Below, piece after piece: positions 11,347-64,000 of a stretch of DNA of 64,000 nt. Numbering within the stretch: position 1 is the first letter of the stretch; each line of letters starts with the position of its first letter. Where the stretch lies: NCBI GenBank assembly GCA_937910695.1, contig CALEMW010000233.1, forward strand, positions 3,677 through 67,676. Direction: 5' to 3'. The position numbers and the translations under genes are program-made. Below the pieces are notes generated by a model. That model was not told the origin of the DNA and searched no databases. It saw nothing but the letters and a program-made list of their open reading frames with translations. This stretch comes from an uncultured bacterium. Lineage in GTDB: Bacteria; Krumholzibacteriota; Krumholzibacteriia; LZORAL124-64-63.

Positions 11347-11423
11347 GATCCTGAACTTGGTTGTTCGGGGCGGTAGGCAGACAGGAAGGGACGCCCCGCT
11401 TTGCAGCGGCGCGCCGGCTCCCA

Positions 11424-11550
11424 ACTTCTACCATCCAGACTTTAACTGTCGGCTCCGGAATTCCACCGAATCAACCGGCCGCGCCGAAGCGCAGACGGGT
11501 CGCGGGCTGTGACCGCCGGTGGGGAATTGCACCCCGCCCCGAAGTTGAGT
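11424..11550 (-). promoter_or_regulatory. FMN riboswitch (RFN element) in the ribD leader
   Basis: Minus-strand sequence contains CUUCGGGGCGGGGUGCAAUUCCCCACCGGCGGU ... GCCGACAGUUAAAGUCUGGAUGGUAGAAG, matching the conserved RFN cores (GGGUGAAAUUCCC-ACCGGCGGUA and GCCGACAGUGAAAGUCUGGAUGG-AGAAG). Confidence 0.8.
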
Positions 11551-42683: not shown

Positions 42684-42783
<100 letters not shown>

Positions 42784-42821: not shown

Positions 42822-42897
42822 TGGTGGAGATGATCGGGTTCGAACCGACGACCCCCACGTTGCGAACGTGGTGCTCTCCCAGCTGAGCTACATCCCC
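42822..42897 (-). tRNA. tRNA-Ala (anticodon CGC)
   Basis: GGGGAUGUAGCUCAGCUGGGAGAGCACCACGUUCGCAACGUGGGGGUCGUCGGUUCGAACCCGAUCAUCUCCACCA. G3:U70 identity pair present and CCA is encoded. Confidence 0.85.
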
Positions 42898-42925
42898 ACC
42901 TGAACTGAGATCACGAGAACGGCGC

Positions 42926-43015
42926 TGGCGGAGAGGCAGGGATTCGAACCCTGGGAACACTTGCGTGCTCAACGGTTTTCGAGACCGCCCCGTTCAACCA
43001 CTCCGGCACCTCTCC
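42926..43015 (-). tRNA. tRNA-Ser (anticodon CGA)
   Basis: GGAGAGGUGCCGGAGUGGUUGAACGGGGCGGUCUCGAAAACCGUUGAGCACGCAAGUGUUCCCAGGGUUCGAAUCCCUGCCUCUCCGCCA. Class II long variable arm. Anticodon loop CUCGAAA. Near-identical anticodon arm to E. coli serU. Confidence 0.85.
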
Positions 43016-43049
43016 ACGCCGTATCCGTCCCTGAGCACGGGACAGAGAA

Positions 43050-43137
43050 TGGCGGAGAGTCAGGGATTCGAACCCTGGGTGCCTTGCGACACACACGATT
43101 TCCAGTCGTGCCGATTCGACCGCTCTCGCAACTCTCC
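43050..43137 (-). tRNA. tRNA-Ser (anticodon GGA)
   Basis: GGAGAGUUGCGAGAGCGGUCGAAUCGGCACGACUGGAAAUCGUG...GGGUUCGAAUCCCUGACUCUCCGCCA. Anticodon loop CUGGAAA and long variable arm. Confidence 0.85.
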
Positions 43138-49021: not shown

Positions 49022-49098
49022 TGGTACGCCCAGGAGGATTCGAACCCCCAACCTCCTGGTCCGTAGCCAGACGCTCTATCCAATTGAGCTATGGGCGC
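49022..49098 (-). tRNA. tRNA-Arg (anticodon ACG)
   Basis: GCGCCCAUAGCUCAAUUGGAUAGAGCGUCUGGCUACGGACCAGGAGGUUGGGGGUUCGAAUCCUCCUGGGCGUACCA. Anticodon loop CUACGGA. G1:U72 wobble noted. Confidence 0.8.
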
Positions 49099-49117
49099 AC
49101 CTATTCAGTTTTCTTGC

Positions 49118-49205
49118 TGGCGGAGAGGGAGGGATTCGAACCCTCGTTGAGTTGCCCCAAACACGCTTAGCAGGCGTGCGCCTTCAGCCACTCGGCCACC
49201 TCTCC
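49118..49205 (-). tRNA. tRNA-Ser (anticodon GCU)
   Basis: GGAGAGGUGGCCGAGUGGCUGAAGGCGCACGCCUGCUAAGCGUG...GGGUUCGAAUCCCUCCCUCUCCGCCA. Class II. Confidence 0.85.
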
Positions 49206-49216
49206 GCCGAAATCGC

Positions 49217-49302
49217 TGGCGGAGGGCGGGGGACTCGAACCCCCAAGGGATCGCTCCCGGCGGTTTTCAAGACCGCTGCGTTACCAATTACGCTAGCCCT
49301 CC
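49217..49302 (-). tRNA. tRNA-Ser (anticodon UGA)
   Basis: GGAGGGCUAGCGUAAUUGGUAACGCAGCGGUCUUGAAAACCGCCGGGAGCGAUCCCUUGGGGGUUCGAGUCCCCCGCCCUCCGCCA. Anticodon loop CUUGAAA, so UGA (Ser) and not the UCA of tRNA-Sec. Confidence 0.85.
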
Positions 49303-61952: not shown

Positions 61953-62657
61953 CTAGCGGAACATGGTCTTCAAATCGCCCCAGCTTGCATCGTCGTTGCC
62001 GGTGGGGTCGAAGGGGAAGATGATCTTGATGCCGAAGACCAGGTCGAAACCGGCCGGCACCGAGACAAAGAAACTGGGTTCGGCGATGCCCGTACCGGCG
62101 AAGGTCCAGCCTCCCATGGGAAATTCGAGGCCCAGAAGGTAGGCCAGCTCGGACCCTCCGTTCAGCACGCAGGTGCCGATGCCGGCGCCCGAGAAGCCGA
62201 AGCCGATGGGGTTGTCCAGAAGCATGTCCCAGTTCGGATCGACAGCGGCCTGCAGGAGCATCACGCCGTCGGTGAACGTCGCCTCGTTGGCATAGTTGGC
62301 CGCGGTGCCGCCGGCGATCGCATCTTCGTAGATCTCGATCACGGCGCCGTTGAACACATATTCCTTCATGCTCAGCCCGGGGGTGAACGTGAAGGCCGTG
62401 AGGGCCATGTTGACCACTCGGATCGTGTACTGGTTACTGGCGAAATCCATGGGCAGCGGGGTCGGAGCGCTCACCGGGGGGTTCGCGATGCCGAGCACCG
62501 TGTAGCTGGATCCGACGGTATCCTGGCCGAGAGTGCTTTTGGAAAAGCCCTCGAAGGTGAATTCGACCTGTCCCAGGACGGGAACGGCCGCGACGAGCAC
62601 CATTGCGGCAAGCGCGGTGCGGATCATGGTGCGAGTGTTGATCTGCTTCATCATCAT
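61953..62657 (-). CDS. Secreted hypothetical protein (beta-rich), paralog A
   Basis: Signal peptide MMMKQINTRTMIRTALAAMVLVAAVPVLGQ. C-terminus ...FPFDPTGNDDASWGDLKTMFR. Confidence 0.6.
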   Translation of the reverse strand: MMMKQINTRTMIRTALAAMVLVAAVPVLGQVEFTFEGFSKSTLGQDTVGSSYTVLGIANPPVSAPTPLPMDFASNQYTIRVVNMALTAFTFTPGLSMKEYVFNGAVIEIYEDAIAGGTAANYANEATFTDGVMLLQAAVDPNWDMLLDNPIGFGFSGAGIGTCVLNGGSELAYLLGLEFPMGGWTFAGTGIAEPSFFVSVPAGFDLVFGIKIIFPFDPTGNDDASWGDLKTMFR

Positions 62658-62672: not shown

Positions 62673-63380
62673 CTAGCGGTACAGGTTCTTAAGGTTGCTG
62701 AACGTGGTGTCTTCGTTCGGGATCGTCGGGTCGTAGTAGATCGAGCCGTCGGCTTCGCAGTCATAGCCTTCGGGAATCGTGCTGTCGGCGCCCACGCCGA
62801 CGAGGCCCGCGATGGCCATGCCGTCGGGGTTGGCCAGCATGTCGCCCAGTTCACCGTAGTTGGTGCCCAGGGTGAAGGTGACCGCGCCCTGGTAGTTGCC
62901 GGAGAAGTTCGTGGTGTTGTAGGTCAACACGAACTGGGTGAACACGCCCGACAGATAGGCGTCGCCGTTGCTGAAACTGCCGATGGCGCCGGCGTCCGGA
63001 GGATCGACGCCGTAGAAAGGCATCGTGTAGCCGGGGTCGAGATACCGATCGGCGATGATGTCGATGGTGCCGCCGGTGTAGTAGACGCGGATCACGCCGC
63101 CTCCCAGATCGATCTGCCCCATCGAAACGAGGCCGTCGATGACCCAGGTGTACTCATAGTCGGCGGTGCTCCAGGTCAACGGATGGCTGATGTTGTCGAC
63201 GAAACCGATACCCGCCAGAACGTCGCCGGCATCGCTGGGCGGAAAGCCCGGTGTTCCCGGAGTGTTGTCCGACTCGTACATATAGCCGATGATGTTGAGG
63301 ACTTCGAAGCTCTGAGCCTGTGCGAGGCCGGTGGCCGAGCACAGCAGTGCGAAGCAAACGAGTAAGTTGAACTTCTTCAT
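62673..63380 (-). CDS. Secreted hypothetical protein (beta-rich), paralog B
   Basis: Start MKKFNLLVCFALLCSATGLAQAQ. C-terminus ...SIYYDPTIPNEDTTFSNLKNLYR. Confidence 0.6.
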   Translation of the reverse strand: MKKFNLLVCFALLCSATGLAQAQSFEVLNIIGYMYESDNTPGTPGFPPSDAGDVLAGIGFVDNISHPLTWSTADYEYTWVIDGLVSMGQIDLGGGVIRVYYTGGTIDIIADRYLDPGYTMPFYGVDPPDAGAIGSFSNGDAYLSGVFTQFVLTYNTTNFSGNYQGAVTFTLGTNYGELGDMLANPDGMAIAGLVGVGADSTIPEGYDCEADGSIYYDPTIPNEDTTFSNLKNLYR

Positions 63381-63630
63381 GTTTCCCCCCGTGGAGACCG
63401 ACGGTTCCGGCGCCGGCACTTGATGTGGACCGTAGATGTTTGTTCCGGCCCGCGAGCAACCATCAGAGCGGGGTCCATTCTCGGGCGCGAATGGATGATG
63501 GTCGATATATCCGCACCCCGAGACTCAATCTCAGGGTTGCCAACTCCCTTGAAGGCTAACACTGCCAACAGTGCCCTGCAATGTCAGTCATAAGCTATTC
63601 ACTATTATTTGTACGTCACAAAGCCTCATA

Positions 63631-63668
63631 CATTAAAAATGCGGAGGTTCCATCAGGAATCTCCGCAT
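63631..63668 (-). terminator. Rho-independent terminator downstream of histone-fold gene
   Basis: Perfect 8-bp inverted repeat AUGCGGAG-N14-CUCCGCAU followed by UUUUUAAUG on the minus strand. Confidence 0.5.
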
Positions 63669-63719
63669 GATTGTCGAGATGCGGCCGAAATAACGACAAC
63701 ATTCGTCTCGTTAGACTTA

Positions 63720-63878
63720 CAGATCGCAGGGACGGACGGTCTTGCGACCGTTCTCCATCGCACGCTTCTCGGCGGCGGCGATGAGCTCGTAAACCTTCTT
63801 GTCCAAGGCGTCGTAGAATTCGCCGGAGACGTTGCAGTTCTTGACCGCTTCCTTGGTCTTTGTCTTGCTGATGATCAT
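63720..63878 (-). CDS. Bacterial histone-fold DNA-binding protein (singlet histone, DUF1931-like), 53 aa
   Basis: MIISKTKTKEAVKNCNVSGEFYDALDKKVYELIAAAEKRAMENGRKTVRPCDL. ATG at 63878 with an AGGAGGA Shine-Dalgarno 9 nt upstream. The C-terminal RAxENGRKTVxPxDL matches the histone-fold alpha3 signature (archaeal HMfB ...ARHAGRKTIKAEDIELA; Bdellovibrio-type bacterial histones). The track ORF adds a TTG-initiated 18-aa extension that is rejected. Confidence 0.65.
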
Positions 63879-64000
63879 GGTCGCTGATCCTCCTGCGGGA
63901 AAAAGGGGTGACGGGAAGGGAATCCTTTCCAACCGGACGCCGAAGGATCATGCCCGCGAATGCCCCGATCTGTCAATCGAGAGATCCACGAACGTTCTCC

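What the first reader, a model, noticed from the sequence alone, without database searches (positions are those of the whole stretch)
63580..63951. Stand-alone bacterial histone-fold gene in an AT-rich island
The 53-aa ORF MIISKTKTKEAVKNCNVSGEFYDALDKKVYELIAAAEKRAMENGRKTVRPCDL has a strong Shine-Dalgarno (AGGAGGA) and its own hairpin-plus-U-tract terminator. It sits in a roughly 140-bp stretch that is conspicuously AT-rich for this ~67% GC genome (63580-63720). Its C-terminal ...RA-x-ENGRKTV-x-P-x-DL is the signature of histone-fold helix alpha3 (archaeal HMf: ARHAGRKTIKAEDI). Overall length and layout match the recently characterised bacterial singlet histones (Bdellovibrio/Leptospira type). 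Such genes are rarely annotated. If expressed, the product would be a nucleoid protein with an unusual DNA-binding mode, here encoded next to the yifB/comM and secreted-paralog region.
Basis: partly seen in the sequence, partly recalled or inferred. Interest (0 to 1): 0.75.

Follow-up and report, generated by a model that had tools for sequence, protein, structure and literature searches.

The report
Small face-to-face bacterial histone gene
The 53-codon gene is real and encodes a miniature histone of the recently described "face-to-face" type, conserved across the uncultured bacterial phylum Krumholzibacteriota. It is a new member of a known family, not a new kind of protein.

Summary
Window 63717-63878 (- strand) is a 53-aa ORF with an AGGAGGA ribosome-binding site, a promoter-like site and its own hairpin plus T-tract terminator.

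**Fold.** The histone reading is supported.
- Pfam DUF1931 passes its threshold narrowly.
- A family profile hits solved histones: HTkC 3.7e-13, HLp 1.3e-6, HBb 7.5e-5.
- An AlphaFold model (pLDDT 91) superposes on HTkC and HLp at TM 0.91-0.92, rmsd about 1 A.

**Subtype.** It is the face-to-face (FtF) alpha3-truncated type of Thermococcus and Leptospira, not the Bdellovibrio dimer type. The tetramer signature R-x3-N-x-R-x-T-x4-D-x-COOH occurs in 118/120 relatives, 82/84 HLp relatives and 0/120 HBb relatives. The likely mechanism, inferred only, is a toroidal homotetramer that wraps about 60 bp of DNA as a nucleoid protein.

**Distribution.** A relative was found in 364 species genomes; the best 80, which were fetched, are nearly all Krumholzibacteriia. 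In 71-73 of those 80 loci it lies between an M20 peptidase gene and comM.

**Corrections.**
- The AT-rich stretch is the 3' flank, not the ORF.
- Window GC is 64%, not 67%.
- It is not an island.
- Databases already label some homologs "DUF1931" or "histone H3/H4".

New member of a known kind; moderate interest.

The parts
63717..63878 (-). Coding sequence (53 codons plus TAA) of a 5.98-kDa, pI 9.0 alpha3-truncated histone-fold protein. Predicted helices: alpha1 residues 5-11, alpha2 residues 19-42, alpha3 turn residues 50-52.
   Evidence: ORF list and sequence. Codon-position identity shows purifying selection. Pfam and PDB hits. AF2 model with pLDDT 91.2. Foldseek TM 0.92 to 9F2C.
63888..63894 (-). 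Shine-Dalgarno sequence AGGAGGA, 9 nt before the ATG.
   Evidence: Read from the sequence. A GGGAGGA or AGGAGGA site lies in the equivalent place in nearly all of 81 related loci.
63947..63976 (-). Proximal sigma-70-like promoter candidate TTGACA-18 nt-CATGAT, implying a 5' UTR of about 60 nt.
   Evidence: Consensus scan, 10 of 12 matches. A TTGACA-17/18-nAnnAT site at -83 to -108 recurs in about 28 related loci. Function is inferred, not shown.
63635..63667 (-). Intrinsic terminator: hairpin at 63640-63667 followed by TTTTT at 63635-63639, beginning about 50 nt after the stop codon.
   Evidence: RNA fold, coordinates, analogous hairpin plus T-run in 54 of 77 related loci.
63580..63720 (.). 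AT-rich stretch (41% GC). It is the 3' UTR and terminator of the histone gene plus the upstream region of the next gene, a secreted paralog. It is not part of the ORF.
   Evidence: Composition. A low-GC 3' flank occurs mainly in loci of the sub-lineage that carries the two paralog genes.

Best explanation
The gene encodes a tail-less, 53-residue histone of the alpha3-truncated family, face-to-face (FtF) subtype. This is the subtype of Thermococcus HTkC, haloarchaeal FtF histones and Leptospira HLp.

**Proposed mechanism**
1. *Expression (read from sequence, conserved in relatives).* It is its own transcription unit, with a sigma-70-like promoter, a strong ribosome-binding site and an intrinsic terminator.
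2. *Fold (predicted with high confidence).* The 6-kDa product forms alpha1, L1, a long alpha2, L2 and a one-turn alpha3.
3. *Dimer (inferred from family).* Two chains pair head to tail through alpha2.
4. *Tetramer (inferred from conserved residues).* Two dimers close face to face into a flat toroidal tetramer. R39 would salt-bridge to the C-terminal carboxylate of L53 on the opposing dimer, and N43 would hydrogen-bond to R45.
5. *DNA binding (inferred by homology).* DNA contacts the rim without sequence specificity, through the alpha1 N-terminus (K5, T6, K7, K9, K13), loop L1 (V17, S18, G19) and loop L2 (K46, T47). About 60 bp would wrap around each tetramer.
6. *Role (inferred).* It acts as an abundant nucleoid-compacting protein of Krumholzibacteriota.
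For: **Family and fold**
- Pfam PF09123 scores 22.6 bits against a 21.8 cut-off.
- The family profile against PDB gives 9F2C (HTkC) 3.7e-13, 9QT0 (HLp) 1.3e-6 and HBb 7.5e-5.
- The AF2 model has pLDDT 91.2. Foldseek gives TM 0.92 and rmsd 1.0 A to HTkC, and TM 0.91 and rmsd 0.9 A to HLp.
- Identity to haloarchaeal plasmid-borne FtF histones is 52-54%.

**Tetramer signature**
- R39, N43, R45, K46, T47 and D52 are invariant in 118 relatives.
- R39, R45, T47 and D52 stay invariant, and N43 is at least 90% conserved, in an 83-sequence alignment reaching 42% identity.
- R39 aligns with HTkC R45. The R45A mutant is a dimer, and R45 binds the opposing C-terminal carboxylate (bioRxiv 10.64898/2025.12.06.692711).
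- R39, N43 and R45 align with HLp R49, N53 and R55, which form the tetramer interface (PMC12701072).
- The motif R-x3-N-x-R-x-T-x4-D-x-end occurs in 118/120 Krumholzibacteria proteins, 82/84 HLp relatives and 0/120 HBb relatives.
- The window protein scores 37.7 bits on an HLp-family HMM and 17.8 bits on an HBb-family HMM.

**DNA contacts**
- HTkC contacts K7, S8, K9, K11, V23, R51, K52 and T53 align with K5, T6, K7, K9, V17, R45, K46 and T47.
- HLp contacts K15, K17, K21, G29 and T57 align with K7, K9, K13, G19 and T47.

**Real, vertically inherited gene**
- Purifying selection is evident.
- 364 species genomes carry a relative.
- Synteny of M20 peptidase, histone and comM holds in 71-73 of 80 loci.
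- The ribosome-binding site and terminator are conserved.
Against: - There are no experimental data, and no expression data, for this protein or organism.
- Tetramerisation could not be modelled.
- Loop L1 is 2-4 residues shorter than in HTkC, HLp and HBb.
- The minor-groove "sprocket" arginine of HTkC (R22) is an invariant Asn (N16) here.
- Net charge is only +3, and there is no basic N-terminal tail of the kind many bacterial relatives carry. DNA affinity or wrapping geometry could therefore differ.
- By overall sequence score HBb is about as close to HLp as this protein is. The subtype call rests mainly on the C-terminal signature.
- Whether these genomes also encode HU or IHF is unknown. 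No HU-like sequence was found in the 64-kb window, which says little about the genome.
Confidence: 0.7

Rival explanations
1. It is a Bdellovibrio-type "bacterial dimer" histone (HBb/Bd0055-like). It would stay a dimer and either bend DNA like HU/IHF or coat straight DNA end-on, without wrapping.
For: It has the same alpha3-truncated fold, with TM 0.86-0.89 and rmsd 1.1-1.2 A to HBb. The family profile hits HBb at 7.5e-5. It shares the S-K motif at the alpha1 N-terminus and RKT in L2. Oligomeric state was not tested here.
Against: Identity to HBb is only 31%, against 42-43% to HTkC and 52-54% to haloarchaeal FtF histones. It scores 17.8 bits on the HBb-family HMM and 37.7 bits on the HLp-family HMM. 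None of 120 HBb relatives carries the R...N.R.T....D-x-end signature. The HBb-like member read has S and D at the two key positions and 5 extra C-terminal residues. Schwab et al. note that bacterial dimers lack these residues (PMC11390915).
Confidence: 0.12
2. It is a histone-fold protein with a role outside general chromatin, for example a specific regulator or a protein-binding module. Schwab et al. suggest such roles for pseudodimeric DUF1931 proteins.
For: The only Pfam hit is DUF1931. Schwab et al. warn that not all prokaryotic histone-fold proteins need be genome organisers. Net charge is modest, +3. The neighbourhood with comM is conserved.
Against: It is a single fold, not a DUF1931 pseudodimer; the match covers model positions 20-53 of 138. 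The residues that contact DNA in HTkC and HLp are conserved, several invariantly. It is transcriptionally separated from comM by a terminator.
Confidence: 0.1
3. It is a recently acquired foreign gene in an AT-rich genomic island.
For: The 3' flank has the lowest GC in the window, and the CDS has 55.6% GC against 64.2% for the window. Haloarchaeal relatives sit on plasmids.
Against: The same position between M20 peptidase and comM holds in 71-73 of 80 loci across the class. There are no phage hits, and the plasmid hits listed or tallied by genus are haloarchaeal. The surrounding window is ordinary chromosome, with tRNAs, SRP RNA and an FMN riboswitch. The AT-rich part is intergenic and is found mainly in the sub-lineage with the two inserted paralog genes.
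Confidence: 0.03

Closest known systems
HTkC, face-to-face histone of Thermococcus kodakarensis (PDB 9F2C, 9T30)
   Same: Best sequence hit (family profile E 3.7e-13) and best structural hit (TM 0.92, rmsd 1.0 A, 42-43% identity). They share the alpha1 K-x-K-x-K pattern, the EFYDAL start of alpha2, the tetramer arginine (HTkC R45 aligns with R39) and RKT in L2.
   Different: HTkC has a 4-residue longer L1 and the sprocket arginine R22 (Asn here). It has His in place of the RD-clamp Asp, which this protein retains as D52, and Glu where this protein has N43. It is archaeal and coexists with nucleosomal histones.
HLp, tetrameric bacterial FtF histone of Leptospira perolatii (PDB 9QT0-9QT2)
   Same: TM 0.91, rmsd 0.9 A, 41% identity. 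The C-terminal signature is identical: R49, N53, R55, T57, D62 and a final hydrophobic residue align with R39, N43, R45, T47, D52 and L53. The alpha1 lysines and L1 glycine that contact DNA are conserved. Both are bacterial, single-copy-like and stand-alone genes.
   Different: HLp has about 9 extra N-terminal residues and a 2-residue longer L1. Its alpha2 N-terminus differs (GDAVDGLN against GEFYDALD). Its L2 has T-T where this protein has K-T. Its neighbours are SMC and MAP, against M20 peptidase and comM here.
Haloarchaeal FtF histones (HVO_0196/D4GZE0 type, chromosomal and plasmid copies)
   Same: 52-54% identity over 98% of the length. Same length class (about 55 aa), same NVS-x-(D/E)FYDALD and R-x3-N-x-R-K-T motifs.
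   Different: They are archaeal and much more acidic. Some copies are plasmid-borne.
HBb/Bd0055, dimeric histone of Bdellovibrio bacteriovorus (PDB 8FVX, 8CMP, 9EZZ)
   Same: Same alpha3-truncated fold (TM 0.86-0.89). Both have the S-K motif, RKT and the RD clamp. Both are bacterial singlets of similar size.
   Different: HBb lacks the tetramer Arg and Asn, has a 5-residue C-terminal extension, and is a strict dimer that bends or coats DNA. Identity is only 31%.
Pfam DUF1931 pseudodimers (Aquifex Aq_328, Thermus TTHA1479, PDB 1WWI)
   Same: This is the only Pfam model matched. NCBI names homologs "DUF1931 domain-containing protein" on that basis.
   Different: Those proteins are about 140-150 aa with two fused histone folds, and are reported to lack the usual DNA-binding residues. 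This protein is a 53-aa single fold matching only model positions 20-53. TTHA1479 scores E 0.27.

Membership tests
Face-to-face (FtF) alpha3-truncated histones (Schwab et al. 2024) | Histone fold with alpha3 cut to a single turn (3-4 residues) and a shortened alpha2. | tested here: met
   The AF2 model (pLDDT 91.2) has H5-11, H19-42 (24 residues) and a turn at 50-52. TM is 0.91-0.92 to HTkC and HLp.
Face-to-face (FtF) alpha3-truncated histones (Schwab et al. 2024) | RxTxxxxD motif (RD clamp shaping loop L2). | tested here: met
   R45-K46-T47...D52, invariant in 118 relatives. Present in 119 of 120 relatives.
Face-to-face (FtF) alpha3-truncated histones (Schwab et al. 2024) | Conserved Arg near the C-terminal end of alpha2 that bridges to the opposing dimer (logo R48, HTkC R45, HLp R49). 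| tested here: met
   R39 is invariant in 118 relatives and in the 83-sequence wider alignment. Alignment to HTkC and HLp is; the residue's role is described.
Face-to-face (FtF) alpha3-truncated histones (Schwab et al. 2024) | Conserved Asn two residues before the RxT arginine (logo N52, HLp N53). | tested here: met
   N43 is invariant in 118 relatives and at least 90% conserved in the wider alignment.
Face-to-face (FtF) alpha3-truncated histones (Schwab et al. 2024) | Chain ends one residue after the clamp Asp, so the C-terminal carboxylate can pair with the Arg of the opposing dimer. | tested here: met
   The protein ends ...D52-L53. 118 of 120 relatives and 82 of 84 HLp relatives end at D+1, against 0 of 120 HBb relatives.
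Face-to-face (FtF) alpha3-truncated histones (Schwab et al. 2024) | Solvent-exposed lysines on alpha1 (logo positions 12, 14, 16 and 20). | tested here: met
   K5, K7, K9 and K13 have the same 2-2-4 spacing. K5 and K9 are invariant, position 7 is K or R in all 118, and K13 occurs in 83 of 118.
Face-to-face (FtF) alpha3-truncated histones (Schwab et al. 2024) | Closed toroidal homotetramer. This is the feature that defines the category. | not testable with these tools
   Only single chains can be predicted.
Face-to-face (FtF) alpha3-truncated histones (Schwab et al. 2024) | Non-specific DNA binding with about 60 bp wrapped per tetramer. | not testable with these tools
   Known for HLp and HTkC only. 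Here it is inferred from conserved contact residues.
Bacterial dimer histones (HBb/Bd0055 type) | Sequence clustering with HBb. The category is defined by sequence. | tested here: not met
   17.8 bits on an HBb-family HMM against 37.7 bits on an HLp-family HMM. 31% identity.
Bacterial dimer histones (HBb/Bd0055 type) | Absence of the FtF tetramer residues R48 and N52. | tested here: not met
   Both are present and invariant here and absent from all 120 HBb relatives.
Pfam DUF1931 (PF09123) | Score above the curated gathering threshold. | tested here: met
   22.6 bits against 21.8, E 1.3e-4. The margin is small.
Pfam DUF1931 (PF09123) | Pseudodimeric architecture: two histone folds in one chain of about 140 aa. 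| tested here: not met
   53 aa, a single fold, matching model positions 20-53 of 138. TTHA1479 scores only E 0.27.
Nucleosomal archaeal histones (HMf/HTk, Pfam CBFD_NFYB_HMF) | Full-length alpha3 (about 10 residues) forming a four-helix-bundle tetramer interface, plus a PF00808 match. | tested here: not met
   No PF00808 hit at E up to 10. Alpha3 is one turn. TM to HMfA is only 0.47-0.48.

The most novel reading that the evidence does not exclude
Krumholzibacteriota may be a third bacterial lineage, after Bdellovibrionota and Leptospirales, in which a histone is inherited vertically across the whole clade and serves as a principal chromatin protein. Here it would be a minimal, tail-less 53-56-residue FtF histone. 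That histone resembles archaeal FtF histones (43-54% identity) more than the characterised bacterial one (41%), which hints at an old inter-domain transfer or common ancestry. The gene keeps a fixed position next to comM. In most relatives it is preceded by a strongly conserved block of two overlapping divergent promoters.
Probability: 0.3. Interest if true: 0.55.

Novelty: new member of a known kind. Interest (0 to 1): 0.35.

Why it matters
Bacterial histones were thought rare: 1.86% of genomes in Hocher et al. 2023. Only two have been characterised, HBb as a dimer and HLp as a tetramer.

A whole uncultured phylum that keeps a tightly conserved FtF histone at a fixed locus (72-98% identity among the retrieved relatives) widens the known range of histone-based bacterial chromatin. 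At 53 residues with no tail, it offers a minimal natural version of the fold, convenient for biophysics and design.

No paper in the searchable library links Krumholzibacteriota with histones. The protein family, its fold and its probable mechanism are already described, so this adds distribution rather than a new principle.

Tried and rejected
- **First AF2 model.** With a shallow alignment (72-98% identity) it reached only pLDDT 71.8. Its helices packed wrongly: Foldseek gave rmsd about 10 A to histones and E about 0.1. It was replaced by the model built on a more diverse alignment.
- **NCBIfam.** No family matched.
- **Rfam.** Nothing matched in the gene's flanks or in the extended upstream region in L001. 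The AT-rich 3' region holds no known RNA family.
- **Phage collection.** No relatives found.
- **Literature.** Schwab et al.'s supplementary text was searched for Krumholzibacteria and other phyla. The phylum lists are in figures, so nothing was found.
- **Taxonomy of tailed and doublet relatives.** Cluster look-ups were mostly unnamed. The only names were Planctomycetota (Engelhardtia and one MAG) and Poseidoniales archaea.
- **HU in the window.** This is uninformative for the whole genome.
- **"Island" reading.** Rejected on synteny.
- **Promoter-like site on the + strand at 63581-63608**. Judged a chance match in AT-rich sequence.

Full report
**1. What is in the sequence**

On the - strand, an ATG at 63878 opens a 53-codon ORF that ends with TAA at 63717-63719.
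- AGGAGGA sits at 63888-63894, 9 nt upstream of the ATG.
- A TTGACA-18 nt-CATGAT promoter-like site lies at 63976-63947.
- About 50 nt after the stop codon, a hairpin (63640-63667) is followed by TTTTT (63635-63639).

The window has 64.2% GC, not about 67%. The stretch 63580-63720 has 41.1% GC, the lowest 141-bp stretch in the window. That stretch is the 3' flank of the gene. The ORF has 55.6% GC and lies beside it, not inside it.

The rest of the window is ordinary chromosome: seven tRNAs, SRP RNA and an FMN riboswitch.

**2. Is it a real gene?**

Yes.
- 165 protein clusters of 72-98% identity were found, mostly 56 aa (an MADM- N-terminal variant) or 53 aa.
- A scan of one genome per GTDB species found relatives in 364 genomes. 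The best 80 are almost all labelled Candidatus Krumholzibacteriia or Krumholzibacteriota. Some carry generic or probably misassigned labels.
- Between the window gene and 77 orthologous loci, identity is 0.86, 0.88 and 0.63 at codon positions 1, 2 and 3, which is clear purifying selection.
- Nearly all of 81 related loci have a GGGAGGA or AGGAGGA site correctly placed.
- 54 of 77 loci have a GC-rich hairpin plus T-run 46-168 nt after the stop, with differing stem sequences.
- A metagenome contig (L001) is 99.98% identical to the last 10.3 kb of the window and continues beyond its end.

**3. What family?**

*Sequence.* Pfam gives DUF1931 at 22.6 bits, just above the 21.8 cut-off, over model positions 20-53 of 138. 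NCBIfam gives nothing.

| PDB entry | Protein | Single sequence | Family profile |
|---|---|---|---|
| 9F2C | HTkC | 2.6e-6 | 3.7e-13 |
| 9QT0 | HLp | 2e-5 | 1.3e-6 |
| 8FVX / 8CMP | HBb | about 0.06 | about 8e-5 |

HTkC is the face-to-face histone of Thermococcus kodakarensis (PMC11390915). HLp is the tetrameric bacterial histone of Leptospira perolatii (PMC12701072).

*Structure.* A first AlphaFold run on a shallow alignment was poor. With an 83-sequence alignment reaching 42% identity, the model has pLDDT 91.2: alpha1 residues 5-11, alpha2 residues 19-42 and a one-turn alpha3 at 50-52. Foldseek against the PDB gives:
- HTkC: TM 0.92, rmsd 1.0 A.
- HLp: TM 0.91, rmsd 0.9 A.
- HBb: TM 0.86-0.89.
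- NF-Y, HMfA, H3, H4 and TAF histone folds: TM about 0.5-0.65.

The listed matches are all histone-fold proteins. The Foldseek E-values are weak (best 2.6e-3) because the protein is so short. The fold assignment therefore rests on TM and rmsd together with the independent sequence hits.

**4. Which subtype?**

The literature separates two kinds of alpha3-truncated histone.
- FtF histones form closed toroidal tetramers.
- "Bacterial dimer" histones (HBb) lack the conserved Arg and Asn of the dimer-dimer interface.

In HTkC, R45 bridges to the C-terminal carboxylate of the opposing dimer, and the R45A mutant is a dimer (bioRxiv 10.64898/2025.12.06.692711). In HLp, the interface is built by R49, S52 and N53 with R55, T61 and F63.

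By the alignments, these residues correspond to R39, N43, R45 and the C-terminal L53 here. R39, N43, R45, K46, T47 and D52 are invariant in 118 relatives. R39, R45, T47 and D52 remain invariant in the wider alignment.

I collected HBb relatives and HLp relatives and counted the composite signature R-x3-N-x-R-x-T-x4-D-x-(end):

| Group | Proteins with the signature |
|---|---|
| Krumholzibacteria relatives | 118 of 120 |
| HLp relatives | 82 of 84 |
| HBb relatives | 0 of 120 |

Other evidence points the same way.
- The window protein scores 37.7 bits on the HLp-family HMM and 17.8 bits on the HBb-family HMM.
- It is 52-54% identical to haloarchaeal plasmid-borne FtF histones.

One caveat applies. 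By overall score HBb is about as close to HLp as this protein is, so the subtype call depends mainly on the interface signature.

**5. DNA-contact residues**

- HTkC contacts K7, S8, K9, K11, V23, R51, K52 and T53 align with K5, T6, K7, K9, V17, R45, K46 and T47.
- HLp contacts K15, K17, K21, G29 and T57 align with K7, K9, K13, G19 and T47 in the profile alignment.
- The sprocket arginine of HTkC (R22) is an invariant Asn (N16) here. HLp also lacks that arginine.
- Loop L1 is 2-4 residues shorter than in the solved proteins.
- The protein is 5.98 kDa, pI 9.0, net charge +3, and has no tail.

**6. Context**

- The order is M20 peptidase (divergent, about 250-300 nt away), then the histone gene, then comM about 250 nt further on the same strand. 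This holds in 71-73 of 80 loci.
- The two secreted paralogs of about 235 aa that separate the histone gene from comM in the window occur in only 16 loci. A low-GC 3' flank is seen mainly in those loci.
- The gene is therefore not in an island.
- No phage relatives were found. The plasmid hits listed or tallied by genus are haloarchaeal.

**7. Wider family**

A profile search of 1.84 billion cluster representatives gave 952 clusters at E of 1e-3 or better. Among the best 150:
- many carry Lys-rich N-terminal tails;
- many are natural tandem doublets of about 120 aa.

The few that carry names are from Planctomycetota and Poseidoniales archaea.

**8. Verdict**

The refinements are:
- FtF subtype, not HBb type;
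- the AT-rich region is the 3' flank;
- the gene is not in an island;
- some homologs are already machine-labelled "DUF1931" or "histone H3/H4".

Shown here: the gene structure, its conservation, the fold prediction and the signature residues. Inferred: dimer and tetramer assembly, DNA wrapping, abundance and a chromatin role.

No searchable paper links Krumholzibacteriota and histones. The family and its mechanism were described in 2023-2025, so this is a new member of a known kind and of moderate interest.

Noticed in passing
Beyond the window end: L001 9803-9841, which would be window positions about 64038-64076. The same element occurs in 72 distinct related upstream sequences.: A strongly conserved block of about 45 nt, aAA.cTA..C-TTGACa-N8-TGTCGAGgCgATTGTG, lies 107-234 nt upstream of the histone start codon. 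It reads as TTGACA-17-GATTGT toward the histone gene. On the other strand it reads as TCGACA-17-TA(a/g)nTT toward the divergent M20 peptidase gene. That makes two overlapping divergent promoters, or possibly an operator. In most lineages it is the only promoter-like site for the histone gene.
   Followed up: partly
L004-L083, the first 60 nt after the conserved GATTGT element.: In most loci the predicted 5' leader of the histone transcript begins with a stem-loop whose sequence differs between lineages, for example CAGCTTGCCGGA...TCCGGAGCTG and GGCCGG...CCGGC. This could be an mRNA-stabilising or regulatory 5' hairpin. No Rfam family matches the region tested in L001. No formal covariation test was run.
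   Followed up: partly
Window 61953-62657 (-) and 62673-63380 (-).: Two tandem paralogous genes of about 235 aa with signal-peptide-like N-termini and no Pfam hit on record. They sit between the histone gene and comM in only 16 of 80 related loci, so they are a lineage-specific insertion into an otherwise conserved histone-comM neighbourhood.
   Followed up: partly
Window 63867-63894, compared with L005-L079.: There are two N-terminal forms. Most relatives are 56 aa (MAD/E-M/L-IISK...), with GGGAGGA 5-7 nt before the first ATG. The window's lineage has lost that ATG (ATGGCTGACATG has become ATCAGCGACCATG) and starts at MIISK, with the ribosome-binding site now 9 nt upstream.
   Followed up: yes
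Proteins P0123, P0125, P0133, P0140, P0143, P0162 and others; P0126, P0128, P0144 and others.: The wider family includes natural tandem doublets of about 115-125 aa, meaning two FtF-like folds in one chain; one such cluster is from Poseidoniales archaea. It also includes many singlets with long Lys/Ala-rich N-terminal tails; two named examples are from Planctomycetota, including Engelhardtia mirabilis.
   Followed up: partly
L004, L006, L020, L024 and other ENA "TPA_asm" records.: Many MAG records that carry the Krumholzibacteriia-type histone locus with the same synteny are titled "uncultured Fibrobacteraceae bacterium". A few are titled Gemmatimonas, Latescibacterota or Fibrobacter sp. These labels look like taxonomic misassignments or placeholders.
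   Followed up: no
Window 11419-11550 (-), 42685-42782 (-), 42822-43137 (-), 49022-49302 (-).: An FMN riboswitch (112.9 bits), bacterial small SRP RNA, and two tRNA clusters (Ala-Ser-Ser and Arg-Ser-Ser). These are ordinary chromosomal features showing that the window is core genome.
   Followed up: no
Residues C15 and C51 of the window protein (codons within 63717-63878).: Cys15 in loop L1 is invariant in all 118 close relatives, where the solved homologs have Met or Phe. Position 51, at the predicted tetramer interface (HLp T61), alternates between C, Q, Y and H. Whether the cysteines have a redox or metal role is unknown.
   Followed up: no
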